NCBI GenBank assembly: GCA_964627245.1 | Contig: CAZVGS010000001.1 | Span: 89,256-153,255 of the forward strand | Reading direction: 5' to 3' | Length of the DNA stretch: 64,000 bases | Origin: an uncultured Gammaproteobacteria bacterium | GTDB taxonomy: Bacteria > Patescibacteriota > Microgenomatia > Levybacterales > GWA1-39-11 | Part shown: piece after piece, positions 971 through 17,344 of the stretch | Layout of the letters: every line of letters begins with the position of its first letter | Position numbering within the stretch: the stretch's first letter is position 1 | Made by a program: the position numbers and the translations under genes | The notes under the pieces: generated by a model | Told to the model about the DNA's origin: nothing | The model's database searches: none | The model's input: only the letters and a program-made list of their open reading frames with translations

Positions 971-2449
971 CTAAAAGCTGAACTTAATAAAAGAACAATT
1001 GTCCGTAGTAACACCCTGGGCAGGCGTAAAGGTCTTTAGCTGAAGCTGTTTTCTTTGAGCTTCTGTCAGAGTAGGAGTTGGCGTCGGAGCGTCTACATTA
1101 TTCTGCACATTCTGCTGACCAAAGCCGAATAACCCGGCAAAGAAATTAACAATTCTTCCCCATAGACTAACCGGCTTGACATCTTCCGCTGCAAGCACAA
1201 CCTTGGTTGGATAAGCGTTAAATATTGCGGCGGTTTTTCTGGAACAGTCGGGCTTTGCTTGTATTCTGTACGTTTGGGAAGTATCAAGATCTAAAGGTAA
1301 ATCCAAATTCCAAATAGCCTGATAACGCGCCAATGTCGGCGTGTCCTCAATAACGGTTGTTGGAACAGTTTCTTTCTTTACTTGGTCAACCACCGTCCCG
1401 CTGCCTTTATAAAAGACGAAGGTAAATGTCGGAATCTTTGCATAATTTGTATTCTCGCCTTCTACTTTCCCGTATGCAGTAACTTTTGTAGTTGTTCCTA
1501 GTGCTATCGAACCAAAATCAAGGCTGTCGCATTTGCACATCGACTCATCAAAAGGCAATGGTGTTGGTGTTGCTGTTGGAGTCGGGGTTGGACTCGATGT
1601 AGGTGTTGGTGTTGCTGTTGCAGTCGGAACCGGCGTTGAAGTTGGGCTTGGAGTCGAAGTAGGCGTGGGAGCATCAGTTGGTGTCGGAGTTGGTGTGGGG
1701 GTTGGCGACTTTGGGACAGTGGGTGTCGCCGATGGCTTTGTGGTTGGAGTCGACTGTGGAGGATTTGTCGGACAAACTCCGCAGTCCTGAGGACACGTGC
1801 TGCATGTTTCACCGCCGCTGCAAACATTATTTGGACATGTTTGAGAAGGTGTTGTTGGCGTAGGAATATTAGGCGGAGTTGTGGGAGTGGGTGTGTTGGG
1901 CTTGCACTGTGTAAAACAATAACCTGCTTGAGCGTTATTTGAATTATACTTTGATGAAGAACACCAATCGTCTCCGGCAGGATTCCAATTCGTAGCTCCA
2001 TTTGGACACGCTTTTGAAAAATTTCCATTTGAATCGGCGCAATAACCGGAACCTCCGGGACAAGGGGTTGGAGGAGCGGGACAAGTCAATTTTAACTGCA
2101 TGCTGATTGCATTACCGTTAGTACCGCATGTCGGACCGCTTAGCGTTGAGGTGCATCCGGGAGGAAATTGTGAAGTGGGAATGTTGACACATCCGGATGC
2201 ATAAGGCGGACAACTGCACCGGGTCAAATTTATTGTACCCCCGGGCCCGGCAGAACCTGACTCCCCTATGCAGTTTGCACCGTTGTCTCCGGGACAGCTT
2301 GCCGTAATCACCCCTCCGGGCCAATTCGTAGCCGAAACAGTAACACTCATTTTTAAGCAATTTGCCAAATTTTGAGCATTGGCGCTTTCGACTCGCAAAA
2401 AACCAAACAAGAATGCAGAAATTATAACTAGAAAAATTTTTAATTTCAT
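971..2449 (-). CDS. secreted Cys-rich protein with a long Pro/Thr-rich linker
   Basis: N-terminal signal peptide (MKLKIFLVIISAFLFGFLRVESANA). Many Cys residues, ~100 aa of PTPTPT-type linker, then a beta-rich C-terminal part. Start overlaps the upstream gene stop by 4 nt. Confidence 0.6.
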   Translation of the reverse strand: MKLKIFLVIISAFLFGFLRVESANAQNLANCLKMSVTVSATNWPGGVITASCPGDNGANCIGESGSAGPGGTINLTRCSCPPYASGCVNIPTSQFPPGCTSTLSGPTCGTNGNAISMQLKLTCPAPPTPCPGGSGYCADSNGNFSKACPNGATNWNPAGDDWCSSSKYNSNNAQAGYCFTQCKPNTPTPTTPPNIPTPTTPSQTCPNNVCSGGETCSTCPQDCGVCPTNPPQSTPTTKPSATPTVPKSPTPTPTPTPTDAPTPTSTPSPTSTPVPTATATPTPTSSPTPTPTATPTPLPFDESMCKCDSLDFGSIALGTTTKVTAYGKVEGENTNYAKIPTFTFVFYKGSGTVVDQVKKETVPTTVIEDTPTLARYQAIWNLDLPLDLDTSQTYRIQAKPDCSRKTAAIFNAYPTKVVLAAEDVKPVSLWGRIVNFFAGLFGFGQQNVQNNVDAPTPTPTLTEAQRKQLQLKTFTPAQGVTTDNCSFIKFSF

Positions 2450-3381
2450 AATTTTGAAATCTCTGAGGTATTATATATCACACCGGTTTCGATTTTAGAC
2501 TTCAGCCAAGAATCATAATCCACACTTTCGCCTTTTGTTACATCTATTACATTAATTACAGCCCCTCCTGAACCGTCCGGCCAAATCCCTTTTGCAACTT
2601 GTCCCTTTTGAGAACTAAAAAGAAGTGTAAAAAATGGCTTATCTTGATCATCCGCCTCGGCCTGCAAAACCCTTGGCTGGGCAGCATCTTCAGGCTTAAG
2701 GTTAGATACCAAAGCTCCATTTAGTCCCAATATTCCTTGAAAAAGAGGATACTTTTCAGCAGTGTCCTTTACTATTGAATACGGGTCATCGCCATTTCTA
2801 AAACGGGTTTGTATCTCATTTGCCATTTCGTTTTGCACCTTCCTTTGCTCCTCAAACTCAGGCAATTGCTCGTAGGGTTCGGGAGGAATCCACCAGCTGA
2901 TATCGTACTCCGTAACCGAAACAACTTTTCCTTGAGTCACTTCACTCTTAAGTTTTTGGTAAAACTCCGCGGGCTCACCCTCAATCTTAGTGTTAAGTCC
3001 CATTAGTTGAGCTTCATTTTCCAATATTGCTCTTTCAACAGCCACCGGAATCATTTCTTTAATTACAGAACTTGTTACTGCAGACCCCAGGTATGATTCG
3101 AGAGCTATCTTTTTTACGTCAGTGTATCTGACCTCTTTATCTCCAATAGTAGCTAAGAGTACGTTTGCGGGTTCAGGCGGGGGAAGGTTGGTTGTTTTAC
3201 TATTTGTAAAAAATATAAATGCAGCAACTGCGAATACCAATATTGAAACTAAAATTCCCGCAATTACAAACATTTTTTTGGACTTTTTTGTTGGCTGCTT
3301 TGGGCTTGTGGAACCGCCGTTTTCTAATGGTGTTTCAATTGCTTCTACATCAGTTTGAGGTTTTTTTACATCATTTTCCAT
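2446..3381 (-). CDS. N-terminally membrane-anchored envelope protein, possibly a SurA/PrsA-like chaperone
   Basis: One TM helix (FVIAGILVSILVFAVAAFIFF) after a charged N-terminus. The remainder loosely resembles SurA-N/PrsA-type chaperones. Function is tentative. Confidence 0.45.
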   Translation of the reverse strand: MENDVKKPQTDVEAIETPLENGGSTSPKQPTKKSKKMFVIAGILVSILVFAVAAFIFFTNSKTTNLPPPEPANVLLATIGDKEVRYTDVKKIALESYLGSAVTSSVIKEMIPVAVERAILENEAQLMGLNTKIEGEPAEFYQKLKSEVTQGKVVSVTEYDISWWIPPEPYEQLPEFEEQRKVQNEMANEIQTRFRNGDDPYSIVKDTAEKYPLFQGILGLNGALVSNLKPEDAAQPRVLQAEADDQDKPFFTLLFSSQKGQVAKGIWPDGSGGAVINVIDVTKGESVDYDSWLKSKIETGVIYNTSEISKL

Positions 3382-3387
3382 AAGAAC

Positions 3388-3948
3388 TTATAACACAAAT
3401 AACAAGAAACCGCCTACTAGAAGGATTGCAATTCCCCCAATTATAGAAACAGTTTGAAAAATGCTTCCCGGAGGCTCTATTGTGGGGGTTGCTGTCGGGG
3501 GGACAGGTGTTGCGGTTGGCGGAACCGGGGTCGGTGTATCAATGATGGCATCAGCCTCACAGAGAAGCTGGTCGGTTCCTGCAGCAGACAACCCCCCGCA
3601 AGAGCTGACAGCAACAACATCACACTTGTAAGTTCTCCCTTGAGTTATAGCAAAACTAACCTTTGCCGTGGAAGATGTTTGGGACGCATTATTTATGATA
3701 ATAGTACCTGTCTCAACTTCGGTTACCGTCACATTGAAAGACGCAGCATCAGCCTGAGTACTCCACGCGCAACTTGCGGTAGTCAAATCACAACTCTCAC
3801 CATTACAGCCCGGGTATTCAACCGTAACGCCTGTAGGGGTTGCAGGCGCTGCGCAAGCTTGAGCGTATGAAGAGTCAACTTTGGTAAGAAAAAAAATAAT
3901 TCCAAAAAGAAATATTATCAAAAACTTTTTTAGCATAAACTCTAACAC
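3388..3948 (-). CDS. secreted protein with PT linker and C-terminal hydrophobic anchor
   Basis: Signal peptide ending SSYAQA, a Cys-containing beta-rich domain, a repeated PTATPVPPTATP linker, and a terminal PPGS followed by a TM helix. Confidence 0.55.
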   Translation of the reverse strand: MLEFMLKKFLIIFLFGIIFFLTKVDSSYAQACAAPATPTGVTVEYPGCNGESCDLTTASCAWSTQADAASFNVTVTEVETGTIIINNASQTSSTAKVSFAITQGRTYKCDVVAVSSCGGLSAAGTDQLLCEADAIIDTPTPVPPTATPVPPTATPTIEPPGSIFQTVSIIGGIAILLVGGFLLFVL

Positions 3949-4121: not shown

Positions 4122-4132
4122 TGTAGTATAAT
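4122..4132 (+). promoter_or_regulatory. -10 box TATAAT (4127-4132) 5 nt upstream of ATG 4138, preceded by TGTAGT
   Basis: Sequence tcTGTAGTATAATgccgtATG. The spacing suits a leaderless or near-leaderless transcript. Confidence 0.4.
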
Positions 4133-4137
4133 GCCGT

Positions 4138-4809
4138 ATGGAACTCCCATACAGTGAATATGTCTGGTTCTCTCCGCGATTCGCGATGAATTACCTCACA
4201 GACTTGATGAGAAAATACACTCCTGATGTTGTACTGAGAAGCCCCAAATACAAGAAAGAAAAAGAAGCATGGATTATGGGCGTAGCACTCTTCGGGGTTA
4301 TTAAAATCACCCGTGTTAGGTGGTGGTTACAAGTGCCAACTGATGACCCACCAGACATGAAGGCTATGATGTTAACGCCAGACCATGATAAAAACCTCAA
4401 TATCATGAATTATCGTGAAGTTGAAATAATGCAAATCACCAAACATACTAACGGAACTATTGTTGAGGAGATTTTGAGAAAGTTAAAGGGTAATTCATAC
4501 CCCAAGGAATGGGCACTAGTCGTCTACTTAAACCGTGCAATGTTTATAGAAGATATGCGAAAAATATCAAACGAACTCGTTGAGGCAAAACCGAAAATCG
4601 CAGATATATGGGTAGTTGCCAGCACTACACCAAATGCGAATAAATACATACTATTTTCTCTTTTCCCAGAGGTTCAGACAGTTACATACGATATTGATGA
4701 GGAGATGAGAAATTTAGAAATTGGAGACTCTATTGACCTCATGCCATACCATAAAGGTACGACAATGACATTAATCCGCAATGTTAAACGCACAAAATTT
4801 ATTCCCTGA
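4138..4809 (+). CDS. hypothetical protein (first gene of element)
   Basis: 223-aa ORF with no antisense competitor of similar quality. No motif recognised with confidence. Confidence 0.55.
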   Translation: MELPYSEYVWFSPRFAMNYLTDLMRKYTPDVVLRSPKYKKEKEAWIMGVALFGVIKITRVRWWLQVPTDDPPDMKAMMLTPDHDKNLNIMNYREVEIMQITKHTNGTIVEEILRKLKGNSYPKEWALVVYLNRAMFIEDMRKISNELVEAKPKIADIWVVASTTPNANKYILFSLFPEVQTVTYDIDEEMRNLEIGDSIDLMPYHKGTTMTLIRNVKRTKFIP

Positions 4810-4839: not shown

Positions 4840-4862
4840 AAAACTTGACTTCCTGCCCGTTA
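4840..4862 (+). promoter_or_regulatory. conserved promoter/operator-like box, copy 1 (AAAACTTGACTTCCTGCCCGTTA)
   Basis: 22 of 23 nt identical to 10587-10609. Contains the -35-like TTGACT. Lies 20 nt upstream of the RHH gene. Confidence 0.5.
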
Positions 4863-4881
4863 TCCGATTACGGTTATCAGT

Positions 4882-5037
4882 ATGAAGTCAACACGTGCGA
4901 CAATCATACTCTCTTCAGACGTTCATGAAGCCTTAAGACGAATGGCGTTTCAAAGACGGCTAAGCATCTCAAAACTGGTCCGACTTTCCCTCATTGACTT
5001 CCTTTTGAAGCATGGGGAGAAAAGACCGGAGGAATAG
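4882..5037 (+). CDS. ribbon-helix-helix (CopG/Arc-like) DNA-binding protein, 51 aa
   Basis: Found by hand because it is below the ORF-track cutoff: MKSTRATIILSSDVHEALRRMAFQRRLSISKLVRLSLIDFLLKHGEKRPEE. It shows the beta-strand/helix/helix pattern of RHH repressors and antitoxins. Confidence 0.55.
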   Translation: MKSTRATIILSSDVHEALRRMAFQRRLSISKLVRLSLIDFLLKHGEKRPEE

Positions 5038-5088
5038 TATGACAGGGGTGAGATTGTCCATCCTTGCCCCGCATACTAATGATTAGCT

Positions 5089-5208
5089 ATGAGCGCAAAA
5101 GATTTAACAATGATTATAGAAATACTGGTACAGATGGATTACATCAGGATTAAGCTCGATGAAAATCAGCGGGTACTTGAGATACTGGCCAAGAGACTGA
5201 AACGATAA
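5089..5208 (+). CDS. possible small protein, 39 aa
   Basis: Hand-translated MSAKDLTMIIEILVQMDYIRIKLDENQRVLEILAKRLKR. The stop lies 1 nt before the next start. No other support. Confidence 0.25.
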   Translation: MSAKDLTMIIEILVQMDYIRIKLDENQRVLEILAKRLKR

Positions 5209-5209
5209 T

Positions 5210-5509
5210 ATGAATTTAGAATTTAACAAAACATGCGAATTATGCAGGGATGAGTTTACCCTTACCCACAGGCCACACAGAGGCGGAACAATAGTCTCAC
5301 GGTTGTGTCCTAATTGTGAATCAATCAAACCTGAGATTGAAAAGGTAATGTACGGCAAATCCTACTCAAGCGCAACGGATGAGGATAAAGCCAGAATCTT
5401 CGAACGCGCACGGGAAAACAGAACAGTCAGACGCGGACCGTTCTTCAATCCCAAAGACAACGGAACGGGCGGAAAAGTTCAGTCAGAATACGAAAGGAGA
5501 AAAAGGTAA
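5210..5509 (+). CDS. small zinc-ribbon protein
   Basis: 99 aa with CELC…CPNC (CxxC-x23-CxxC). Confidence 0.5.
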   Translation: MNLEFNKTCELCRDEFTLTHRPHRGGTIVSRLCPNCESIKPEIEKVMYGKSYSSATDEDKARIFERARENRTVRRGPFFNPKDNGTGGKVQSEYERRKR

Positions 5510-5712
5510 TGCCGACAAGAAATAATACAGAAGGAAAGGTATTCGGTGATATTGAGGGACAGACAAACCACCCTGAGGGACTGGACATGACAAAACAGTT
5601 AAAAATGAGGGAAGGACAGCGCAGCGGATTGGTCAGAATGGGAGTACCGAAAAGCATCGTCAGAGCAAGTATCAATCAGGCTCAGTTTAAGCCTACAAGA
5701 AAGGGTAAATAA
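5509..5712 (+). CDS. hypothetical small protein
   Basis: 67 aa. Its start shares one nucleotide with the upstream TAA (TAATG coupling). Confidence 0.45.
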   Translation: MPTRNNTEGKVFGDIEGQTNHPEGLDMTKQLKMREGQRSGLVRMGVPKSIVRASINQAQFKPTRKGK

Positions 5713-5795
5713 TGATCACTTACTGTTCGGAATGCGGGTACAGACTTTTCCGGGGTAAATACCGATACTACTGTATTAACAAAGAATGCTTATGA
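5712..5795 (+). CDS. possible 27-aa zinc-ribbon mini-protein
   Basis: Hand-translated MITYCSECGYRLFRGKYRYYCINKECL (CxxC…CxxxxC). The start abuts the upstream stop. It is very short, so speculative. Confidence 0.2.
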   Translation: MITYCSECGYRLFRGKYRYYCINKECL

Positions 5796-5968
5796 TAGAT
5801 GAATTACTTGATGATATGGCAATTGAGATTGAACGGCTAATGGTAAGCGATGCGGTTAAAGCCCGCCTGAGATTACAGCTTGCAGAGCTTGCGGATAATA
5901 CCCAGGAGCTACGGCTGAAAGCACTATTTGACTGTATTCTGTTCGAGGCCAAAAAACTAAACACATGA
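5786..5968 (+). CDS. hypothetical small helical protein
   Basis: 60-aa ORF with an ATGA overlap onto the next ORF. Confidence 0.4.
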   Translation: MLMIDELLDDMAIEIERLMVSDAVKARLRLQLAELADNTQELRLKALFDCILFEAKKLNT

Positions 5969-6264
5969 AACTATACGAAAAAGCAATAAAACAACTGGAG
6001 CGGGATAAACCTAAGGTAACTATTGAGGATAACACAGCCAAGAGAATAGAAATCCTGAACAAACTGTTACAGGCAGAATACGGATTCATTGAGCAGAACA
6101 AAGATGAAGTAACGAAAGAGCTGAAAGGACGGTTCAAAGAAACCCTGATAAATGAAGTACTTGAAGAGATTAAGAATCACAGCAATACCGGTAAAACACC
6201 GTACTATGTAGGACTACAGATCGCCAGCGATACGGTACAAAAACGAAAGGGAAAACAGCAATAA
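5965..6264 (+). CDS. hypothetical protein
   Basis: 99-aa ORF, charged and helical, translationally coupled to its neighbours. Confidence 0.5.
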   Translation: MKLYEKAIKQLERDKPKVTIEDNTAKRIEILNKLLQAEYGFIEQNKDEVTKELKGRFKETLINEVLEEIKNHSNTGKTPYYVGLQIASDTVQKRKGKQQ

Positions 6265-6265
6265 T

Positions 6266-6613
6266 ATGAAACAAAATAAGACCATTTCCCCCTTAGAAGG
6301 AAATAATGAGGAAGCCGAACAGGCTACAAAAGAGATACGGTCAGGCAAGTCAGCTAGTGGAAAGAAATCTTCCCCCCCCGTTCCCCGTCCCCAACAAACA
6401 CCGTTTAAGATAAACAAACTCTCGGATATCCGCAAAGCAAGTAAGGTACTCATGACTGATTTAATCAACAAGGAGGGCAGGTTCACGGTTGCAGAAAGCA
6501 GAGTATTCAAGGACATGGCAGAGCTGTACTTTAAGGCGGAGGAGAACATTACAACCAAGAGACTAATGAATAAGCTGAAGAAAGAAAACGACACGGACAG
6601 AAAGGGGCGGTAG
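6266..6613 (+). CDS. hypothetical basic protein
   Basis: 115-aa ORF that starts 1 nt after the upstream stop. Confidence 0.5.
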   Translation: MKQNKTISPLEGNNEEAEQATKEIRSGKSASGKKSSPPVPRPQQTPFKINKLSDIRKASKVLMTDLINKEGRFTVAESRVFKDMAELYFKAEENITTKRLMNKLKKENDTDRKGR

Positions 6614-6796
6614 CGCAGGGGTATGGGTACTGAATAAACTGTACGGTATTTCAATGATGCTACACCACCCCCCACCTATACCTACACCCCGCGCGGTGGG
6701 ACACGGGTAAAGGGAGTGACATATAGAGGAAGTACTTAACGGTGTACAGAAGGTAACCCATTGAAGCGAACTCTTATAAATTTTTTGGGAGATTTT

Positions 6797-6805
6797 TGTC
6801 ATAAT
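6797..6805 (+). promoter_or_regulatory. extended -10 (TGtCATAAT) 6 nt upstream of ATG 6812
   Basis: Sequence tttTGTCATAATaactgtATG. Confidence 0.35.
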
Positions 6806-6811
6806 AACTGT

Positions 6812-7006
6812 ATGAATGATACCAACTTTCTAATTTCTCTGGCTATTGGTTTTGTTATATTTTTACTTTTTTCATTTAGTGGCCCAAAAACGCATCGCGA
6901 TCCATTCTATGGTGATATTGATAACATTTCGCATAGTATTGCTGTTGGATTGATCTGTATGGGGGCAACGTACAGTATTTTGCAAATTATTAGTAGTATG
7001 TTTTGA
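6812..7006 (+). CDS. small two-TM membrane protein
   Basis: Internal Met of ORF 6761..7006. The product is MNDTNFLISLAIGFVIFLLF…GLICMGATYSILQIISSMF with two hydrophobic helices. The start was chosen because of the -10 box placement. Confidence 0.4.
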   Translation: MNDTNFLISLAIGFVIFLLFSFSGPKTHRDPFYGDIDNISHSIAVGLICMGATYSILQIISSMF

Positions 7007-7092
7007 TGTCCCAATTTGACAAAGATTGATTAGCACGATACGGTGTATAAGCTTGGTAAAGGATACTATGGCAGTATTCTAATCTACAAAGG

Positions 7093-7117
7093 AGCATCTC
7101 TCAGGAGGTGCTTTTTT
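7093..7117 (+). terminator. intrinsic terminator
   Basis: AGCATCTC-tcag-GAGGTGCT stem (8 bp, one G-U pair) followed by TTTTTT. It lies inside the N-terminal extension of track ORF 7043..7399. Confidence 0.55.
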
Positions 7118-7126
7118 GTGTCTATT

Positions 7127-7135
7127 TGGTATAAT
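7127..7135 (+). promoter_or_regulatory. extended -10 (TGgTATAAT) 6 nt upstream of ATG 7142
   Basis: Sequence attTGGTATAATgaattaATG. Confidence 0.45.
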
Positions 7136-7141
7136 GAATTA

Positions 7142-7399
7142 ATGGATTATAAAACTGCCAGTGAGCTACTTAGAGAACTTTCTCTACTTTGGATATGGGA
7201 AGCCGGAAACTATAATAATAAAATTCCATCCAACTTGCTTACCCGGGATCTTTGTTATTATGACCAGGCGTGCGACTATTTACGACGATTTCCTAAAACA
7301 GGTGATCTTGAACGTGTGGCCCTCGCTCAAATGCAGATGAATTACATTGACGATATTGAGGGGAATAATGAAATGGAAAAATTATTTTCCATCCTCTAA
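7142..7399 (+). CDS. hypothetical protein, 85 aa
   Basis: Internal Met (MDYKTASELL…) of track ORF 7043..7399. The upstream part of that ORF contains a terminator and a promoter. Confidence 0.4.
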   Translation: MDYKTASELLRELSLLWIWEAGNYNNKIPSNLLTRDLCYYDQACDYLRRFPKTGDLERVALAQMQMNYIDDIEGNNEMEKLFSIL

Positions 7400-7525
7400 C
7401 CTTTTAATTACATCAGCTCTTCTCTTCCGTACTTCATCAAGGAGTTTCTTACGTCTTTCACGGACTTCATTGTACATGGGTTTTACTACTACTCGTGGCT
7501 TTCTAAACTTCCCGTATTCAGTCAT
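7382..7525 (-). CDS. possible 47-aa basic protein at the end of the cargo operon
   Basis: Hand-translated MTEYGKFRKPRVVVKPMYNEVRERRKKLLDEVRKRRADVIKRLEDGK. The ATG lies 3 nt after the upstream stop. No other support. Confidence 0.2.
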   Translation of the reverse strand: MTEYGKFRKPRVVVKPMYNEVRERRKKLLDEVRKRRADVIKRLEDGK

Positions 7526-7528
7526 ACG

Positions 7529-7822
7529 TTAGTACTCTCCTACGCGTTCAGCCCATTGAGGAGGTGTTCTTTCGTCCTCTTCGCTATGTAATTGAGTTTC
7601 AAATGATATTTTCGAGGCGTGTTCTATAGTGGAATCTTTACCTACTTCGCCACCTATTCCGAGTACGGTAATTCCTACTTTTCCGCCTCCCTTGTCACTC
7701 TTGGTAACTGCAATATCAAATTTAACGGAGCTTGAAACATAATTACCGCCAGTGTGAGCGTCCTTTATCTGCCTGAGGCTTTCTTGTATGAAGTCTTTTA
7801 GTTCGTTATTTTCGTCTGCCAT
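7529..7822 (-). CDS. trypco2-like (trypsin-co-occurring domain 2 / CU044_2847-like) small protein; family assignment tentative
   Basis: 97 aa. The pattern LKDFIQESLRQIKDA…VKFDIAVTKSDKGGGKVGITVLGIGGEVGKDSTIEHASKISFETQL resembles the helix plus beta-hairpin Gly-rich pattern I recall for trypco2 domains. Confidence 0.45.
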   Translation of the reverse strand: MADENNELKDFIQESLRQIKDAHTGGNYVSSSVKFDIAVTKSDKGGGKVGITVLGIGGEVGKDSTIEHASKISFETQLHSEEDERTPPQWAERVGEY

Positions 7823-7823
7823 A

Positions 7824-8291: not shown

Positions 8292-8310
8292 TAACCAGTA
8301 TTATACTCCT

Positions 8311-10227: not shown

Positions 10228-10232
10228 ACGAA

Positions 10233-10532
10233 CTAGTTACCACCATTTCGTACACGGGACACAAAATCTCTAATTCTTTGTTGAAAGTCATTGTTATATT
10301 CTTTGAATTCTGGATTACGAACAGCTTTACAGCTTGGATAAGAAATTTGTCGATTAAATGGAAGTTCGCGTGTTACAGTCTGACAAACAATAGTTACAGG
10401 TGTATGAGGATTATCATAAATTGGCGGTGTTACTCCACCTCCACCATAAGCAGAAGCTGTTGGAACGTTAAATAAGAATACGGAGAGAATAAATGTGAGT
10501 ATAAATAACTTTTTCATCCTTAAAAGCATCAT
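10233..10532 (-). CDS. small secreted protein (first gene of cargo operon)
   Basis: 99 aa with signal peptide MKKLFILTFILSVFLFNVPTASA. Separated from the GT2 gene by 5 nt. Confidence 0.55.
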   Translation of the reverse strand: MMLLRMKKLFILTFILSVFLFNVPTASAYGGGGVTPPIYDNPHTPVTIVCQTVTRELPFNRQISYPSCKAVRNPEFKEYNNDFQQRIRDFVSRVRNGGN

Positions 10533-10586
10533 AACAGATGCATCTTATAATATCAATACCCATTTCTTACAATATTTTAATTTTTG

Positions 10587-10609
10587 AAAACTTGACTTCC
10601 TGTCCGTTA
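10587..10609 (+). promoter_or_regulatory. conserved promoter/operator-like box, copy 2 (AAAACTTGACTTCCTGTCCGTTA)
   Basis: 22 of 23 nt identical to 4840-4862. Confidence 0.5.
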
Positions 10610-10656
10610 GTACGATAGGGTTTCATCATAAGCTAAACAGCCAAGCACTAGCACTT

Positions 10657-10692
10657 AGCGACTAATCGTATTTTCGAGAGGTCGCTTTTTTT
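10657..10692 (+). terminator. promoter-proximal intrinsic terminator in the leader of the 10790-16553 operon
   Basis: AGCGAC…GTCGCT stem with an internal loop, followed by TTTTTTT. It lies 47 nt after box copy 2 and about 100 nt before the first gene. Confidence 0.45.
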
Positions 10693-10789
10693 GTGGCTGG
10701 AATGTTGAAAAGCGGGGGTTCCTCCTTCAACAAGGGGTCCATAATGCCCCCGCCTTTGAGCCTTTCAGTTAAATGATACAAGGTTAAAT

Positions 10790-11062
10790 ATGAAGAAAGT
10801 AAGCAGAAACAATTTATACAGAGAGATAGACAAATTATTCCTTTGGTTAATTCAGTTACCCGATACTGATGCCGATGAGGATAAGTCTTTGCGTGAAATT
10901 CAGAAACATCTTGTCAGGTTATCAAATCTGAAAAGTGAGGAATACACTCAGGAAGCTCCTGAACAGCCGGAACAACCGCAACAGCAGGAACCGCAAAAGC
11001 CGTTAACCGATATGCAACGAAAAATTATGAGCGGGGAAATCTCGATAGGAGGACAGGAATAA
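10790..11062 (+). CDS. hypothetical acidic protein
   Basis: 90-aa ORF, first of a co-directional array of 7 ORFs. Confidence 0.5.
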   Translation: MKKVSRNNLYREIDKLFLWLIQLPDTDADEDKSLREIQKHLVRLSNLKSEEYTQEAPEQPEQPQQQEPQKPLTDMQRKIMSGEISIGGQE

Positions 11063-11063
11063 A

Positions 11064-12101
11064 ATGGCTTGGGGCGAACAGGGACAGAAAATTACATGGA
11101 CACCGAACGTAGTTTCAGACGATAAGAAACAACACGGCGGATGGTATGACAATCCTTCAACGGGATATAACCAACGGTGGTACTCAGGCGGTGCAACCAG
11201 TGAAAACGGTAACTCTTCCTCTAGTGGCTTCTCAATTCCTCAACCTGATATGGAAGCAATCAATCGGGAGTATCAGCCTATTTATGAGAATTATGCCCGT
11301 GATGAGCAGTTCTTAAAAGAATCCCAGGCAAGTGAGCAGGAAATGCTTAATGACAATTTTACTCTTGCCGATACCCGACTTGATAGGAATAAAACGGAGC
11401 GCGAGTTACACAACAAGGAACAGGAAACTACACTTAATAATCAATACCGCTCAGCGTACGAGGAAGTAGTACGCGCACAGAACGCATTAACACAGCAGGG
11501 AAATGTACGATTCGGAGGCACATCTTCAGCGGGTCGGGCTATGGGAGAAATCGCACAAAGTGAATTCTTCCGACAGTCAGGAAAAATACAGAATACCCAT
11601 CTTGAGAATATAGGCAGAATTCAGTCCGATTGGAGAAAATATCTTTCTTGGCATGCGGACGAAGAGCAAAGACTGGTCCAGGAGAAAAGACACGAAACCA
11701 CAAAACTTCAAAACACGTACAAACAGATGTATGTTCAGATTGCAAATAACCGTAACATCACAAAATCAGAACAGGCACGGGCACAGCGCAACGCTCAGGA
11801 AACATACCAGGCACGTAAGGCAGACCTTGAGAACTCTATCAAACTCAGACAGATGGCAATGGATGAGTACGCCCAAAAACTCAGAATGGAACTTGATGCG
11901 CAAATTGAGTTAGCGGGTAAAACAGCCTATTCGGTATCGGATAACACGTTTGCAAGTGATACTCAGTCAGATGTTGACGGTGTAAGTTATGTTCCTTCCG
12001 AGAACGGCAGTCTTATGAATATGAATACCAGTTATGTAAATCCGTTCGCACGCGCACGATACAGCGATGATGAATTTGAGGATAATCCTTATTTCGCTTA
12101 A
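11064..12101 (+). CDS. Gln/Asn/Glu-rich coiled-coil protein, function unknown
   Basis: 345-aa ORF. The N-terminus has GGWYDNPSTGYNQRWY and the centre is long, heptad-like and charged. It starts 1 nt after the upstream stop. Confidence 0.6.
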   Translation: MAWGEQGQKITWTPNVVSDDKKQHGGWYDNPSTGYNQRWYSGGATSENGNSSSSGFSIPQPDMEAINREYQPIYENYARDEQFLKESQASEQEMLNDNFTLADTRLDRNKTERELHNKEQETTLNNQYRSAYEEVVRAQNALTQQGNVRFGGTSSAGRAMGEIAQSEFFRQSGKIQNTHLENIGRIQSDWRKYLSWHADEEQRLVQEKRHETTKLQNTYKQMYVQIANNRNITKSEQARAQRNAQETYQARKADLENSIKLRQMAMDEYAQKLRMELDAQIELAGKTAYSVSDNTFASDTQSDVDGVSYVPSENGSLMNMNTSYVNPFARARYSDDEFEDNPYFA

Positions 12102-12106
12102 TAACT

Positions 12107-15100
12107 ATGGAATTAAAATCACTGCTCAGAGACGTTTCACGCCGTTATAACGAATATAACCGTAAACAGAAAAAACCACGCATACAGCCGAGTCTTATTG
12201 AAGATGTCGGGAACCGATTCCGCTCATTCGTAAAAGAACAGTCTCAGGAAGGCCAACCGCTCCACAAAATAACCCGCACCATTCAGGAATTACCGTTAGT
12301 TACACAACGCGAAGTAGATGAGGTCGGGACCCGCTTTCGCTCTTTCGTGGATGAAAGACAAAAAAATGTTGATGATGTGGGTAAACGATTCGGGGAATTC
12401 AAAGTAAAGGCTTCTCAGTTTTCAAAGGATTATGACCCGTTCAACTTTGATGAAAAAGCCCCGATAAATCAGCTTCCCGTTCTCGGCGATATCCGCAGAA
12501 CATTACAGCCGTATACAAATCCTTATAAATTAGGTCCTATGGAACTGATGCGCAGAAATACGGAACTCATGCAAAAAGAGAGTAAAGGAATTGCATTGAC
12601 CGATGAGGAAAAGGAATTTCAGAAGTATTACATGACCGAACAGGCTTCTATGGTTATGCCGATGGGTACGGTCGGTAAAGTGGCAAAACCCGCATTAACC
12701 GCATTGCAGAAAGAAGCCGTAAAGAAATTACCTAAAATACTCTATGAATTTGATGCTAAGACCGCAAACAAGGTAATTGATGAAGCAAAAGGAGCCTCTA
12801 AAGAATGGGTTGATGAATTCAAATCATGGGTAAATACCAGAGCATCCGCACAGCTTCAGGGACTGAATCAGCGGATGAAATTCAAGGATATGGATTCTGA
12901 GGGAATTGCAGGTATTTTTAAGTTCCAGGCAGGAGACAAGACGGGACGGTTTGCCGATGTGAAGAAATTTTTTGATTCCCGCTATTCAGAACTTCAGAAA
13001 GCAGGAGTTGAATTCAGATATAAACAGGAGTATCTACCGCAACTATGGCTTAATTCAAAAGAAGAGGTTGAGGAACGGCTCGGACGAACTCTTACTTCCC
13101 GTCCTTCCTTCTCTCTTCGATCAGTAATTGAGAATTATCAGAAAGGAATAGCTAACGGACTAAAACCGCGCTTTCAGACATTATCGGAACTTATCGGATG
13201 GTATGAGGCAAAAACGGCCAAAGTTATAGCGGATCAGAATTTTTACAACTACATGAAGAAGGCAAAGTATATTCTTCCTGAGGATACGGCTCCTGCATGG
13301 TGGAAAACGATAGATTCCGAGAAGTTTCCGAAGTTCACGGTTAAAGTAGGTTCGGAGGTTAAGAATCTGAACTATAAAGCTGAGGGAAGAATTGCGGATG
13401 CTATTAACAATTATCTTAATGACCCTGAAGGAGCATTACCAGCTTTTGCTGACTTTGCCACGAAGGTTAAGAATCTGGGATTATCGGCAGGCGTACCCCA
13501 TACTTCAATTAACTTTCACGGCTATAACATCTTCGTCCGTTCGGTCCTGGCAAGTAATAACCCCGTATCTTCTATTTTCAGAACAGGCCAATGGATGCTT
13601 AAACCCAAAATTGCGGAACGGTTTGTTATGAATAACCTTGAGGATGCGCAGTATTTTGTTAAAAACGGCATGACCATGAGTACCGAGGATTACGGACTGT
13701 TCGAGGCGGTTGAGAAGGTTAAAAAAAGCGGTGTAATTAATAAGACATTAGATAAATATGAGGAATGGTTCGGGGACCCTCTGTTTAAGAAATCCCTTCC
13801 CGCAATCAAAATTCAGTATACCCGCGCATTGTTTGATGATTTACTCAAAACATTGCCTGAAGAGGAAGCGGTAAAGATAGCCGTAAAAAGCGCAAATGAT
13901 GTATTCGGGGGAATTAATTTGAATGAACTGATGCGCAACAAACAAACACAAAATGTACTCCGTTCCGTTCTGCTCGCGCCAGACTGGGCTGAGTCTACAA
14001 TCAGAATGGGTAAAGGAATTGTTAAAGGAGTTGCCAACCCGTTAAGCCCCGAGTACAAAGCATACCGTACTTTTGCCAAAAACATGGTATTCGGGTATAT
14101 CACGGCCAACGTTGTGAATAAAGCTCTGTCAGGTCACTGGATGTTTGAAAATGAAGGTAACAATAAATTCAATATTGATACCGGTACATATACGGGAGAC
14201 GGTAAGAAACGGTACTTCAGAATCTGGGGTACGGCCGTTGATTTTGCCAGACTTCCTGTTGATATCGTTAACGGTCTCTCAAAAGGCGATCCGTCAGCAT
14301 TTGTCAGAACCTTCACTAACCGCTTATCCATGCCTGTAGGTTCAGCAGGACATTTACTATTCAATAAAGATTATCTCGGACGGCCCGTATACGGAAAAGA
14401 CCAATGGGGAAATGAAATCGACCCTATACAGTCAGCAGGAGGCATAACAAATGAAGTATTACGCGGTGTCGGAACTCCTACTCAGGTAATGGCGGGTATT
14501 GATTTACTTACAGGGCGTTCAAATCCCGAACAGGCTCTTGCTCAGTCACTTGAACTTCCGATGCGATATCAGGGAGGAGCAAGCTCGGACACACAGAAAA
14601 GAAGAAATGCAGCGTTTCAGTCTCTCGGCTTTGAAGGCGAAGCATTAGCCCGCGAAATGGAGAGAACAAAGGGTATGAGATATTCGGGAAGTCAGGGAGA
14701 AGAAAAGTCACTGCTTGACCATATCGGAGAAAAGTTCATGAGCGTATTCGGTAAGAAAGAACCTAACAGACCTCAGCCGAATGACCCGCTTACAAAGGCT
14801 TTTCTTGCGGATATCGAAAAGGATGAGAATGCTACCCGTGTAAGAGAAGTATTCAAATTAGGTTTAAGCAAGGAACAGACAGAACAGTTACTTGAAAAGG
14901 AAGGATTAGGTACGTATGAAGAAGCTGAATTGATAATTATGAAAGCTCTCGGTGTTGAGAACGGAACTCGTGGAAATTACATTCAGGAGATTACAAAGGG
15001 AATGGATGATGAAAGTAAAGAGGCCACTCTTTCCTATCTGGCCGAGAACGAAATTCTGACTACCTCAGTTATATCCCAATGGGTTGATGACGGGGAAATA

Positions 15101-15391
15101 ACAGACGAGGAAGCCGATTATCTGAAGGACCTGATTAAAAAAAGTAAAGGAACGTACAAAGGTCCGAAGGCAAAAGGCGGTAAGAAAGCGGGCGCAAAGA
15201 AAGTAACGGCAGGAAGTATCCCGACAATTAAGATTCCTACTTTTGCGGGCGGTACGGTTAAGAGTGTCAGCAAGGCATATTACAAACCGATACCAAAGAT
15301 TACCTATGAAAGACCTACGCCTACTTCAAAACAAAAAGTATCAGCTCCGAAGCCTGAGACTAATTTTAAATCATACGGAGGGAACAACTAA
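12107..15391 (+). CDS. large (1094 aa) protein of unknown function with N-terminal triple repeat and basic C-terminal tail
   Basis: Longest ORF of the element. It has three copies of (D/E)(D/E)VG(N/T/K)RF(R/G)(S/E)F in the first ~100 aa and a Lys-rich C-terminus (KAKGGKKAGAKK…). I found no Walker A or other catalytic motif. Confidence 0.75.
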   Translation: MELKSLLRDVSRRYNEYNRKQKKPRIQPSLIEDVGNRFRSFVKEQSQEGQPLHKITRTIQELPLVTQREVDEVGTRFRSFVDERQKNVDDVGKRFGEFKVKASQFSKDYDPFNFDEKAPINQLPVLGDIRRTLQPYTNPYKLGPMELMRRNTELMQKESKGIALTDEEKEFQKYYMTEQASMVMPMGTVGKVAKPALTALQKEAVKKLPKILYEFDAKTANKVIDEAKGASKEWVDEFKSWVNTRASAQLQGLNQRMKFKDMDSEGIAGIFKFQAGDKTGRFADVKKFFDSRYSELQKAGVEFRYKQEYLPQLWLNSKEEVEERLGRTLTSRPSFSLRSVIENYQKGIANGLKPRFQTLSELIGWYEAKTAKVIADQNFYNYMKKAKYILPEDTAPAWWKTIDSEKFPKFTVKVGSEVKNLNYKAEGRIADAINNYLNDPEGALPAFADFATKVKNLGLSAGVPHTSINFHGYNIFVRSVLASNNPVSSIFRTGQWMLKPKIAERFVMNNLEDAQYFVKNGMTMSTEDYGLFEAVEKVKKSGVINKTLDKYEEWFGDPLFKKSLPAIKIQYTRALFDDLLKTLPEEEAVKIAVKSANDVFGGINLNELMRNKQTQNVLRSVLLAPDWAESTIRMGKGIVKGVANPLSPEYKAYRTFAKNMVFGYITANVVNKALSGHWMFENEGNNKFNIDTGTYTGDGKKRYFRIWGTAVDFARLPVDIVNGLSKGDPSAFVRTFTNRLSMPVGSAGHLLFNKDYLGRPVYGKDQWGNEIDPIQSAGGITNEVLRGVGTPTQVMAGIDLLTGRSNPEQALAQSLELPMRYQGGASSDTQKRRNAAFQSLGFEGEALAREMERTKGMRYSGSQGEEKSLLDHIGEKFMSVFGKKEPNRPQPNDPLTKAFLADIEKDENATRVREVFKLGLSKEQTEQLLEKEGLGTYEEAELIIMKALGVENGTRGNYIQEITKGMDDESKEATLSYLAENEILTTSVISQWVDDGEITDEEADYLKDLIKKSKGTYKGPKAKGGKKAGAKKVTAGSIPTIKIPTFAGGTVKSVSKAYYKPIPKITYERPTPTSKQKVSAPKPETNFKSYGGNN

Positions 15392-15393
15392 TT

Positions 15394-15579
15394 ATGAATA
15401 AAAAGTGTCTTACATGCGGGACGGAATTACAGAAACGAAAACATGAAAGCCGGGCAAGATTTGAAAAAAAGCAGTTCTGTACGGCCGAACATGCCAGGAC
15501 ACATATGAAGGAAACAGGGCGTGGCTGGTGGAATCCGGAATTTGATAGAGGAAAACTCAGAGCAAAGGGGGTGAATTAA
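15394..15579 (+). CDS. small zinc-binding protein
   Basis: 61 aa with CLTC…CTAEH. Confidence 0.5.
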   Translation: MNKKCLTCGTELQKRKHESRARFEKKQFCTAEHARTHMKETGRGWWNPEFDRGKLRAKGVN

Positions 15580-15581
15580 AT

Positions 15582-15776
15582 ATGAACAAAGACCAATTAA
15601 GAGATGAAATGCAACAGGTAGCTTATGACACTATTCGGGGCGTTTCAGGACAACAGGTAAACGAGATTGATTACAAGAACGCGCTTGTATCAAAAACTCA
15701 GGAAGTCGTTGACGGAGCATATCAGCTCGGTTATAACGCGGGCTTTGAGGCGGGCAAAAACGCGCCACAAGGTTAA
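15582..15776 (+). CDS. hypothetical small protein
   Basis: 64-aa ORF, tightly packed against its neighbours. Confidence 0.5.
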   Translation: MNKDQLRDEMQQVAYDTIRGVSGQQVNEIDYKNALVSKTQEVVDGAYQLGYNAGFEAGKNAPQG

Positions 15777-15808
15777 GAAATATTAAAAATGAAAGGAGGT
15801 GTAAAAAT

Positions 15809-16201
15809 ATGATTCGCAGAGATAAAACAAATTACGATCCTAACAAGGATAAATACAACTGGACGAACGACATGTACCGACAGGATGAGCTTTCTAACAG
15901 GGATTTAGAAGAACAGAAAGCGATAATCAATAACTGGCAGGCTATGAGTGAAAGTAAAAATGAAGCTGAAAAAGCCGAATGGGAACTGAACAGAAGAATT
16001 GCAGCGGTTACCGAAACGGATAATGCAGACATCAGACAGAAAGAGGCAATTAAGAGATACAAAATAGCCCAAAAATATGACGAGATAATCCGTAGCAAAA
16101 TGACAAGAGGCCAGACAGAGGAAGAATTTGAAGAAGAACGTCATGAATACGGAGCATTGCATCGCAGGGCTTTAAAAGAGGCTATGCGGTCAATTGAATA
16201 A
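15809..16201 (+). CDS. hypothetical charged helical protein
   Basis: 130-aa ORF preceded by a strong SD (aaaggaggtgtaaaaatATG). Confidence 0.55.
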   Translation: MIRRDKTNYDPNKDKYNWTNDMYRQDELSNRDLEEQKAIINNWQAMSESKNEAEKAEWELNRRIAAVTETDNADIRQKEAIKRYKIAQKYDEIIRSKMTRGQTEEEFEEERHEYGALHRRALKEAMRSIE

Positions 16202-16553
16202 TATGAGGGACGAGAAATGTATTGAATGCAGTGAGCAATTCACGATTACGGAAAGTGAACAATCATTTTATGTAAAGATGGGGTTCTTTCTTCCGAAAAG
16301 ATGCGCTGATTGCAGAAGAAAAAGAAAAGCTCAATTCGGGCAGGAAAGGAGGTTTAACTTAATGAATAATTCAAAACTTACAACATCAAGAATTACAAAG
16401 GCCACGAAGCAGGAAGCACCTAAAAATGCTATAGATTTTGCTTCTGACCAGAGAAAGGGAGTAACCAACTCTCAGGCTCCTGAAATTCGTGCGAATAACG
16501 GAACCATCTCTAGCAACGGCGGACGGTTCGGCGGATTCCTTAAGAACCGCTAA
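16194..16553 (+). CDS. zinc-ribbon protein (zf-trcl-like CxxC…EQxFY…RCxxCR)
   Basis: 119 aa. CIECSEQFTITESEQSFYVKMGFFLPKRCADCRRKRK matches the pattern I recall for the 'probable zinc-ribbon' family. Confidence 0.55.
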   Translation: MNNMRDEKCIECSEQFTITESEQSFYVKMGFFLPKRCADCRRKRKAQFGQERRFNLMNNSKLTTSRITKATKQEAPKNAIDFASDQRKGVTNSQAPEIRANNGTISSNGGRFGGFLKNR

Positions 16554-16963: not shown

Positions 16964-16992
16964 TTGACAAGTCACTTCCAGCATGATACAAA
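16964..16992 (+). promoter_or_regulatory. sigma70-like promoter (TTGACA-17-TACAAA)
   Basis: Sequence agcTTGACAagtcacttccagcatgaTACAAA inside the 780-nt ORF-free region. Confidence 0.4.
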
Positions 16993-16999
16993 TAATATG

Positions 17000-17110: not shown

Positions 17111-17150
17111 ATTGGCTTACTACTAGCCCTATTAGTAGTGCACATACGGT

Positions 17151-17203
17151 AGAGGCAATCAGATGAATCGCGTAAAAGCGGAAAATCGGTTGTCTCTTTT
17201 TTT
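17151..17203 (+). terminator. second intrinsic terminator preceding the conserved leader box
   Basis: AGAGGCAA…TTGTCTCT outer stem with nested GAT/ATC and CGC/GCG pairs, followed by TTTTTTT. Confidence 0.45.
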
Positions 17204-17344
17204 GTGGCTTGAATGAGGGGAATCGTCAGCGCGTTCCTCTCCTTCAATTCGCAAGAATTGAGGTAAGTAGTTAAGTCCTTTGTCTGGCTGGCATTTGCTT
17301 CTTTGTCAGTCAGTCAAAGCATTTAAGGAAAGGGGGTGAAAATT

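What the first reader, a model, noticed from the sequence alone, without database searches (positions are those of the whole stretch)
4840..4862. 23-nt box AAAACTTGACTTCCTG(C/T)CCGTTA present twice in the element
Positions 4840-4862 and 10587-10609 are identical at 22 of 23 positions. Each copy precedes the start of a plus-strand module: the RHH/early-like genes and the large-protein operon. The box contains a perfect -35-like TTGACT, but at 17-nt spacing there is only (A/T)TA(C/G)GG and no canonical -10. A looser relative, CTTGACaagtcaCTTCCAG, sits at 16963. This suggests an element-specific promoter, or an operator for the RHH or another element protein, that coordinates the two halves.
Basis: seen in the sequence. 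Interest (0 to 1): 0.5.

Follow-up and report, generated by a model that had tools for sequence, protein, structure and literature searches.

The report
Shared promoter core in CPR prophage
The 23-base repeat is real and is most likely the upstream half (-35 element plus spacer) of two matching bacterial-type promoters in a small phage-like element of a Levybacteria (CPR) genome, so it is an ordinary kind of signal in a little-studied setting.

Summary
Positions 4840-4862 and 10587-10609 match at 22 of 23 bases, and chance does not produce such a pair.

Both copies carry TTGACT, an 18-nt spacer, then TA(C/G)GGT. In an alignment with four related sites, the only invariant columns are TTGAC and the T, A and final T of that hexamer. 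This is the sigma-70 promoter signature.

- **Copy 1.** Its -10 ends 7 nt before the ATG of a 51-aa ribbon-helix-helix (RHH)-like gene that has no Shine-Dalgarno sequence. This fits the host's own leaderless-mRNA geometry.
- **Copy 2.** It drives a leader whose intrinsic terminator ends about 65 nt after the predicted start, ahead of the virion-type operon. Relatives L003, L044 and L045 keep this promoter-terminator layout (62-67 nt).

The box-specific spacer (TCCTGYCCGTTA) appears in no related element. Whether it is an operator, for the RHH protein or another factor, is therefore inferred and not shown. The "looser relative" at 16963 is a separate promoter-like site and not a copy of the box.

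The host is a CPR bacterium (Levybacteria). Verdict: a new member of a known kind, of moderate to low interest. The conserved promoter-proximal terminator is the most interesting lead.

The parts
4840..4862 (+). Box copy 1. It comprises the end of an A-tract, the -35 TTGACT (4845-4850) and the first 12 nt of the spacer.
4869..4874 (+). -10 hexamer TACGGT of promoter 1, 18 nt after the -35. It is followed by 7 nt and then the ATG at 4882.
   Evidence: sequence; T, A and final T invariant across 6 sites; host -10-to-start gap of 5-8 nt
4857..4873 (.). 17-bp near-palindrome CCGTTATC-C-GATTACGG (7 of 8 pairs). It spans the end of the box and the -10 and is present only in copy 1. It may be a separate operator.
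   Evidence: read directly. I estimate the chance of finding one in a 72-nt gap at about 0.03.
4882..5037 (+). 51-aa RHH-like gene with no Shine-Dalgarno sequence. It is predicted to be translated from a leaderless mRNA that starts at its ATG.
   Evidence: CopG 2cpg/1b01, E 0.23-0.27; RHH_1, RHH_5, RHH_7 and Antitox_RHH, E 0.02-0.12, all below Pfam cut-offs
10587..10609 (+). Box copy 2. It comprises the -35 TTGACT (10592-10597) and the first 12 nt of the spacer.
10607..10621 (+). Family motif TTAGTACGATAGGGT, which includes the -10 hexamer TAGGGT (10616-10621).
10628..10692 (+). Predicted short leader transcript of about 65 nt. It ends at an intrinsic terminator: hairpin 10657-10686 followed by a T7 run at 10686-10692.
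   Evidence: orthologous region in L003
10694..10771 (+). Long G+C-rich leader hairpin enclosing GGTTCCTCCTT. It lies upstream of the Shine-Dalgarno sequence and ATG (10790) of the operon.
10790..16553 (+). Operon headed by promoter 2. It encodes a 90-aa protein, a 345-aa protein, a 1094-aa polyvalent-protein-like protein and several small genes.
7016..7044 (+). Third promoter-like site of the same class, TTGACA-N17-TACGGT with TTAGCACGATACGGT. A strong terminator follows at 7085-7120.
16964..16992 (+). It is a separate promoter-like site, TTGACA-17-(TGa)TACAAA, ahead of the replication/recombinase genes. It is not a copy of the box.
17192..17215 (+). Second copy (92% identical) of the leader segment GTCKCTTTTTTTGTGGCTKGAATG found at 10681-10704. 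GTTCCTC follows it, as in leader 2.
10528..10556 (-). Canonical divergent promoter TTGATA-17-(TG)TATGAT for the minus-strand glycosyltransferase operon.

Best explanation
The 23-nt box is the upstream half of a sigma-70-type promoter that occurs twice in a roughly 16-20 kb phage-like integrated element of a Levybacteria (CPR/Patescibacteria) genome. It comprises the end of an A-rich tract, the -35 hexamer TTGACT and 12 nt of the spacer.

In both copies a G+C-rich -10 hexamer, TA(C/G)GGT, lies 18 nt after the -35.
- **Promoter 1** starts transcription at or next to the ATG of the RHH-like gene. This would give a leaderless mRNA for a run of small early-type genes.
- **Promoter 2** starts about 160 nt upstream of the virion-type operon. 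Its transcript meets an intrinsic terminator about 65 nt after the start, so expression of the operon probably needs terminator read-through (antitermination or attenuation).

Sigma-70 does not read the upstream spacer. The near-identity of TCCTGYCCGTTA in the two promoters therefore most likely marks a shared binding site for one element-encoded regulator that couples the two modules. The RHH protein encoded directly behind copy 1 is the leading candidate.

**Shown:** the repeat, the hexamer geometry, conservation of the hexamers and of the terminator layout, and the host's leaderless geometry.
**Inferred:** the transcription starts, the regulator binding and its identity, and antitermination.

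The confidence of 0.7 is for the promoter reading. I put the shared-operator part at about 0.4.
For: 1. **The repeat is non-random**.
2. **The host uses canonical sigma-70 promoters.** TTGAGT-17-TATAAT and TGnTAAAAT lie upstream of its tRNA genes.
3. **The -35 and -10 are the conserved parts.** Aligning w1, w2, w3 (7016), L003, L045 and L002 leaves only TTGAC and T, A ... T of the hexamer 17-18 nt downstream invariant. In L003, the closest relative (58% identity in the large protein), the -35 and TAGCGT are kept while the upstream spacer differs.
4. **Similarity between the two copies falls in two blocks.** It is 22 of 23 identical, then 0 of 6, then 6 of 7 (TAsGGTT). I calculate that 6 of the 7 mismatches falling in one 6-nt run has a chance of about 1e-4.
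5. **The host's leaderless geometry fits copy 1.** Twelve of 59 genes in the window have a TATAAT-like hexamer (at least 5 of 6) ending 5-8 nt before the start codon. The background is about 0.5 genes per offset, and most host genes lack a Shine-Dalgarno sequence. The RHH ATG lies 7 nt after TACGGT and has no Shine-Dalgarno sequence.
6. **The promoter class recurs.** TTGAC-N9/10-TTAGnnnGATAnGnT occurs at w2, w3, L003, L044, L045/L050/L060 and L050:411, against 0.17 expected by chance in 936 kb. Four of these sites defined the pattern.
7. **The terminator layout is conserved.** In w2, L003, L044 and L045 an intrinsic terminator ends 62-67 nt after the predicted start.
8. **The gene behind copy 1 looks like an RHH protein.** It gives weak but consistent matches to four RHH Pfam families and to CopG.
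Against: - There are no transcription data, so no transcription start is observed.
- The -10 hexamers match TATAAT at only 3 of 6 positions and are G+C-rich. The standard consensus scan did not list either site.
- The box-specific spacer is found in no related locus. Its function therefore rests on within-element identity alone, which a recent short duplication or gene conversion could also produce.
- The box has no clear dyad or tandem sub-sites of the kind RHH operators usually show.
- The RHH assignment is below the Pfam thresholds, and the single-sequence AlphaFold model was uninformative.
- No antiterminator gene was identified.
Confidence: 0.7

Rival explanations
1. The box marks two promoters, but its spacer has no function. 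One promoter arose by a short recent duplication or gene conversion of the other, and no regulator binds the shared sequence.
For: The spacer part of the box is absent from every related element. Spacers of the same promoter class differ freely among w3, L003, L044 and L045. The box has no internal symmetry.
Against: The identity stops sharply and resumes exactly at the -10 (22 of 23, 0 of 6, 6 of 7). Neutral decay of a duplicated promoter would not give that pattern. Flanks outside -41 show no residual similarity.
Confidence: 0.25
2. The promoters belong to a class read only with an element-encoded factor, either a sigma-like protein or a Q-type antiterminator loaded at the promoter. In this reading the box or the TTAGnnCGATAsGGT motif is that factor's DNA site, and the terminator at +62-67 is its target.
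For: The G+C-rich -10 hexamers contrast with the canonical TATAAT promoters used elsewhere in the same element (4127-4132, 7130-7135, 10528-10556). The -10-proximal motif is conserved across elements whose large protein is only 38-58% identical. The promoter-proximal terminator is conserved in four elements.
Against: No sigma, Q or N homologue was detected in Pfam, PHROGs or NCBIfam. Copy 1 has no downstream terminator. The CGATA core resembles the sigma-28 -10 (GCCGATAA), but the -35 and the spacing do not fit; that comparison is from my own knowledge. The IMG/VR scan for the motif found 4 unrelated hits and no enrichment.
Confidence: 0.2
3. The two copies are direct repeats left by, or used for, DNA rearrangement. 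They could be att-like or target-duplication ends of a nested 5.7-kb insertion (4863-10586), or substrates for its deletion. In this reading they are not transcription signals.
For: The copies are direct repeats in the same orientation bracketing a 5.7-kb block. In L003 a different cargo, a restriction-modification system, lies upstream of the equivalent promoter.
Against: No integrase or transposase lies between the copies. Both copies are in register with a -10 hexamer and a downstream gene. The -35 and -10 of copy 2 are conserved in L003, where there is no second copy in the 8.8-kb contig. The box is not palindromic as serine-recombinase sites are.
Confidence: 0.05

Closest known systems
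Bacterial sigma-70 (housekeeping) promoters with an 18-nt spacer and a weak -10; leaderless regulator mRNAs such as lambda cI from PRM
   Same: The site has a TTGACT -35 and a TAnnnT hexamer 18 nt downstream, sits behind an A-rich upstream tract, and lies in intergenic DNA ahead of operons. The regulator gene starts at the predicted +1, like leaderless cI (the cI comparison is from my own knowledge).
   Different: The -10 is G+C-rich (TAsGGT, 3 of 6 matches). The spacer is identical in the two copies. A longer -10-proximal motif, TTAGnnCGATAsGGT, is shared across related elements, which ordinary sigma-70 promoters do not require.
RHH repressor-operator pairs that overlap the repressor's own promoter: CopG/Pcr of pMV158, and Arc and Mnt at Pant of phage P22
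   Same: A small RHH-like protein is encoded as the first gene behind a promoter that carries a conserved non-sigma sequence over the -35 and spacer. CopG is the best match among solved natural proteins.
   Different: The box has no dyad or tandem half-sites. Binding is untested. The sequence match to RHH families is below threshold. A second copy sits at a distant operon. A separate 17-bp palindrome (4857-4873) exists only at copy 1 and could be the true autoregulatory site.
Lambdoid late-gene control: PR'-qut-tR' with Q antiterminator, and put RNAs of HK022
   Same: A promoter is followed closely by an intrinsic terminator ahead of the virion gene operon. Conserved sequence lies between the -35 and -10, where lambda's Q-binding element lies (from my own knowledge). 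The structured leader has a similar size (about 65 nt) in four elements.
   Different: No Q, N or Nun homologue was found. The terminator is much closer than lambda tR'. A pause element is not demonstrable. Copy 1 of the box has no terminator.

Membership tests
Sigma-70-type promoter | -35 hexamer close to TTGACA | tested here: met
   TTGACT (5 of 6) at 4845-4850 and 10592-10597. TTGAC is invariant in 6 aligned sites.
Sigma-70-type promoter | -10 hexamer TAnnnT placed 16-18 nt after the -35 | tested here: met
   TACGGT and TAGGGT at 18 nt. T1, A2 and T6 are invariant in 6 sites. Only 3 of 6 positions match TATAAT, so the consensus scan missed both sites.
Sigma-70-type promoter | The host RNA polymerase recognises this consensus | tested here: met
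   The host's tRNA genes and many protein genes have TTGnnn-17-TATAAT or TGnTAAAAT upstream. This is inferred from sequence, not from biochemistry.
Sigma-70-type promoter | Transcription starts 6-8 nt after the -10 | not testable with these tools
   No transcriptome is available. The indirect evidence is that the RHH ATG lies 7 nt after the -10, matching the host's leaderless offset of 5-8 nt.
Sigma-70-type promoter | Hexamers conserved in orthologous positions while the spacer drifts | tested here: met
   Comparison of the window with L003, and with L044 and L045.
RHH (CopG/Arc/Mnt-type) operator | Dyad or tandem sub-sites about one helical turn apart | tested here: not met
   The box has only 3-bp terminal complementarity (AAC...GTT) and a 5-nt-spaced ACTT repeat (read). 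A 17-bp palindrome exists, but only at copy 1 and mostly outside the box.
RHH (CopG/Arc/Mnt-type) operator | Overlaps the promoter of the RHH gene itself | tested here: met
   Copy 1 lies 20-42 nt upstream of the RHH ATG and includes the -35.
RHH (CopG/Arc/Mnt-type) operator | The adjacent protein has the RHH fold | tested here: inconclusive
   Four RHH Pfam families match at E 0.02-0.12, all below their cut-offs. CopG matches at E 0.23. The AlphaFold single-sequence model shows one long helix.
RHH (CopG/Arc/Mnt-type) operator | Specific binding of the protein to the site, and covariation with the protein in relatives | not testable with these tools
   No RHH homologue was found in 5.8 billion proteins or in the related loci searched.
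Q-type (lambdoid) late antitermination unit | Intrinsic terminator between the late promoter and the virion genes | tested here: met
   The terminator ends 62-67 nt after the predicted start in the window, L003, L044 and L045.
Q-type (lambdoid) late antitermination unit | A Q-family protein is encoded by the element | tested here: not met
   No hit in Pfam, PHROGs or NCBIfam for the element ORFs that were scanned; a few small ones were not.
Q-type (lambdoid) late antitermination unit | Promoter-proximal sigma-dependent pause and a Q-binding element | not testable with these tools
   TAAGCT at +2 to +7 of leader 2 is -10-like but is not kept in L003. No functional test is possible.

The most novel reading that the evidence does not exclude
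The box and the adjoining TTAGnnCGATAsGGT motif may define a promoter class specific to CPR phages. Its features would be a G+C-rich -10, frequent leaderless starts, and a terminator fixed about 65 nt downstream. An unrecognised element-encoded factor would load at the promoter spacer, as lambda Q loads at its binding element, and carry RNA polymerase through the terminator into the virion operon. The RHH protein would set the lysogeny/lysis switch through the same box.
Probability: 0.15. Interest if true: 0.6.

Novelty: new member of a known kind. Interest (0 to 1): 0.35.

Why it matters
Gene regulation in CPR/Patescibacteria and their phages is almost entirely uncharacterised, because the hosts are uncultivated. 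This element gives a compact and testable regulatory map.
- Two co-ordinated promoters share an identical candidate operator.
- A regulator gene is predicted to be leaderless.
- A promoter-proximal terminator ahead of the virion genes is conserved in several distant relatives.

If confirmed, this would give usable promoter and terminator parts and a first model for a lysogeny/late-gene switch in a CPR phage. The repeat taken alone is a routine promoter motif.

Tried and rejected
**Searches for the box or leader elsewhere**
- IMG/VR scan with the box 19-mer gave one hit, inside a 2343-aa ORF (L001), which I judge a chance match.
- IMG/VR scans with the leader 17- and 18-mers gave five chance hits in unrelated coding DNA, L010-L014.
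- Megablast of the element against GenBank phages found nothing.
- Rfam returned only tRNAs at gathering threshold and nothing credible at E up to 5.
- An nhmmer profile of the window/L003 promoter plus leader found no other locus.

**Searches for related elements**
- The large-protein family alignment found no relative in 185,579 species genomes.
- Exact look-ups of the window's RHH and UvrB found neither on record.
- The RHH homologue search found none.
- IMG/VR scans with the 223-aa and 345-aa proteins found none.

**Structure and motif tests**
- RNAalifold on four leaders was too divergent for a covariation test.
- The AlphaFold model of the RHH protein alone gave a single helix and was uninformative.
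- PDB sequence and fold searches for the large protein found nothing.
- The spacer sub-motif TTCCTGYSSGTT has no further meaningful copies.
- The IMG/VR scan for the family promoter motif gave 4 unrelated hits and no enrichment.

**Readings I rejected**
- ECF-sigma reading (AAC...CGT): the spacing is only 13 nt.
- Sigma-28 reading of CGATA: the -35 and spacing do not fit.
- DnaA-box reading of TTATCCGAT: it matches 6 of 9 positions and lies outside the shared box.
- Serine-recombinase site: the box is not palindromic.
- Partial tRNA duplicate as an attL: none was found.

Full report
**1. The observation**

The two 23-mers are at the stated coordinates and match at 22 of 23 positions. No other copy with up to 3 mismatches exists in the window, and shuffles give none. 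In 300 first-order Markov randomisations of bases 1-21000, none contained any pair of 23-mers with at most 1 mismatch. Both copies are intergenic, on the + strand, and upstream of + strand genes.

**2. Setting**

The window's UvrB is 86-91% identical to UvrB in MAGs titled Candidatus Levyibacteriota (other MAGs in the same identity range are titled uncultured Gammaproteobacteria). It is 69% identical to a Candidatus Levybacteria MAG and about 60% identical to other Patescibacteria. The host is therefore a CPR bacterium.

Bases up to about 20.2 kb have a higher G+C content (0.40-0.44) than most of the rest of the window (mostly 0.34-0.40). This part ends with a large serine recombinase gene (18557-20233) that abuts and overlaps tRNA-Lys(CTT). 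It also encodes a DnaD-like or replication-initiator-like protein (17690-18106) and a minus-strand GT2 glycosyltransferase operon.

The 1094-aa protein (12107-15391) has only 7 homologues among 5.8 billion proteins. A metagenome scan added 23 loci at 29-51% identity. Several of these contigs are 14-17 kb and carry phage hints, namely an SU10 adaptor, a faint CHAP hit and ribosomal protein S21.

The AlphaFold model of the large protein has modest confidence (pLDDT 54; core 70-85). Its best matches are phage "large polyvalent protein associated domain" proteins in BFVD, with E 1.5e-12. Nothing matched in the PDB. The box therefore sits in a small phage-like integrated element, and copy 2 heads its virion-type operon.

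**3. What the box is**

*A -10 element at 18-nt spacing.* Both copies read TTGACT-N18-TA(C/G)GGT. The hexamers are TACGGT at 4869-4874 and TAGGGT at 10616-10621.

*Similarity in two blocks.* Between the copies the match is 22 of 23, then 0 of 6, then 6 of 7 (TAsGGTT). I calculate that 6 of the 7 mismatches over 36 positions falling in one run of six has a chance of about 1e-4.

*The host's own promoters are canonical.* TTGAGT-17-TATAAT and TGnTAAAAT lie upstream of its tRNA genes.

*More sites of the same type.* A pattern search found further sites: window 7016-7044, L003:2437 and L002:12778. In the six-site alignment the only invariant columns are TTGAC and the T, A and last T of the downstream hexamer. 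These are the positions sigma-70 depends on most, which I state from established knowledge.

*The closest relative keeps the hexamers.* In L003 the orthologous intergenic region keeps AAACTTGAC and GATAGCGT but has a different upstream spacer. The transcribed leader that follows is about 80% identical.

*A longer shared motif.* TTGAC-N9/10-TTAGnnnGATAnGnT recurs at w2, w3, L003, L044:7558, L045:2425 (the same sequence as L050 and L060 at 7790) and L050:411. Chance would give 0.17 hits in 936 kb. Four of these sites defined the pattern, so only two hits are independent.

**4. Copy 1 and leaderless translation**

The RHH-like ORF has no Shine-Dalgarno sequence, and its ATG (4882) lies 7 nt after TACGGT. 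In this window 12 of 59 genes carry a TATAAT-like hexamer (at least 5 of 6) ending 5-8 nt before the start codon, against about 0.5 genes per offset elsewhere. Most host genes also lack a Shine-Dalgarno sequence.

Leaderless mRNAs thus appear common in this genome, and promoter 1 fits that geometry. Element genes 4138 (TATAAT plus 5 nt plus ATG) and 7142 (TGgTATAAT plus 6 nt plus ATG) do as well.

The ORF matches four RHH Pfam families at E 0.02-0.12 and CopG structures at E 0.23-0.27. This is consistent with an RHH fold but below threshold.

**5. Copy 2 and its leader**

The predicted start at about 10628 is followed by an intrinsic terminator: a hairpin at 10657-10686 and a T7 run ending at 10692. 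A long G+C-rich hairpin (10694-10771) enclosing GGTTCCTCCTT comes next, then the Shine-Dalgarno sequence and the ATG at 10790.

The same layout is present in L003, L044 and L045. It consists of a promoter of this class, a terminator ending 62-67 nt after the predicted start, a small gene, a 345-410-aa gene and the large gene.

Expression of the virion operon therefore probably requires terminator read-through. The mechanism is unknown, and no Q- or N-like protein was recognised.

A 24-nt piece of this leader (10681-10704) recurs at 92% identity at 17192-17215, ahead of the replication/recombinase genes. GTTCCTC follows it there as well.

**6. The spacer part of the box**

TCCTGYCCGTTA occurs in no related locus and nowhere in IMG/VR apart from one chance hit in coding DNA. 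Other promoters of the class have unrelated upstream spacers.

Its identity in two promoters of one element, with sharp edges, is best explained by a shared regulator site. This is inference. The RHH protein is the obvious candidate by analogy with CopG/Pcr and with Arc at Pant, which I recall from my own knowledge. Against that, the box lacks the dyad or tandem sub-sites typical of RHH operators. In addition, copy 1 alone carries a 17-bp palindrome (4857-4873) that could be the real autoregulatory site.

The RHH gene has no detectable homologue.

**7. The site at 16963**

It reads TTGACA-17-(TGa)TACAAA. It is a plausible separate promoter that shares only the -35 and CTTCC with the box. It is not a diverged copy.

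**8. Verdict**

The box is real. Most likely it is the -35 plus spacer of two co-ordinated sigma-70-type promoters, with an inferred shared operator. My confidence is about 0.7 for the promoter reading and about 0.4 for the operator reading. It is a new member of a known kind. The features that lift it slightly above routine are:
- the CPR-phage context;
- the G+C-rich -10 class alongside canonical promoters in the same element;
- the apparent prevalence of leaderless genes;
- the conserved terminator about 65 nt after the predicted start.

Noticed in passing
window, whole (e.g. 33418-34392 -, 47793-48770 +, 59618-60103 -, 4138-4809 +, 7142-7399 +): Leaderless gene organisation looks common in this Levybacteria genome. 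Twelve of 59 genes have a TATAAT-like hexamer (at least 5 of 6) ending 5-8 nt before the start codon, and most host genes lack a Shine-Dalgarno sequence. Several element genes do have strong Shine-Dalgarno sequences.
   Followed up: partly
window 10681-10704 and 17192-17215 (also 10718-10728 and 17233-17243): This is a second repeated regulatory segment. The terminator tail plus GTGGCTKGAATG is 92% identical over 24 nt, and GTTCCTC(C/T) follows it in the leaders of two different operons. The anti-Shine-Dalgarno-like GGTTCCTCCTT also occurs in the leaders of L003 and L045.
   Followed up: partly
window 16554-17335: This 783-nt non-coding stretch lies between the virion-type operon and the replication/recombinase genes. 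Its predicted RNA structure is very stable (z = -6.4) and it contains two terminator-like hairpins. It could hold small RNAs or the replication origin.
   Followed up: no
window 7016-7142: Three signals are packed into a short stretch: a promoter-like site of the box class (TTGACA-17-TACGGT), a strong terminator 40-75 nt downstream (7085-7120), and a canonical extended -10 (TGgTATAAT) 6 nt before the ATG at 7142. This suggests a small RNA of about 70 nt followed by a leaderless gene.
   Followed up: partly
window 18557-20279: The last 27 nt of the large serine recombinase ORF overlap the 3' end of tRNA-Lys(CTT), which is on the opposite strand. No partial tRNA duplicate was found elsewhere in the window, so the left end of the element remains undefined.
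   Followed up: partly
window 7529-10532 (- strand): This operon encodes a 638-aa GT2 glycosyltransferase and small proteins and is driven by a canonical TTGATA-17-TGTATGAT promoter. It looks like lysogenic-conversion cargo. In L003 the same position holds a restriction-modification system: a DNA methylase, R.HinP1I and Vsr.
   Followed up: no
window 11064-15391; loci L002-L009, L041-L063: A rare gene pair, a 345-435-aa protein followed by a 1000-1600-aa mostly helical protein, defines a family of phage-like elements, several on 14-17 kb contigs. The family has 7 homologues in 5.8 billion proteins and none in 185,579 species genomes. Some members are integrated in contigs of 312-417 kb (L050, L060).
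   Followed up: partly
window 971-3948 (- strand): Three minus-strand ORFs have no family match. One has a signal-peptide-like N-terminus and Thr/Pro-rich linkers, and one contains a 12-18-nt periodic repeat at 1560-1757. Their G+C content matches the element, so they may belong to it or to a neighbouring island.
   Followed up: no
L065 2125-2155 (- strand): An unrelated IMG/VR contig carries TTGAC-N10-TTAGCGCGATACGGT about 20 nt upstream of a Shine-Dalgarno sequence and an ATG. This is the same extended promoter motif in a different virus, and it may be coincidence.
   Followed up: no
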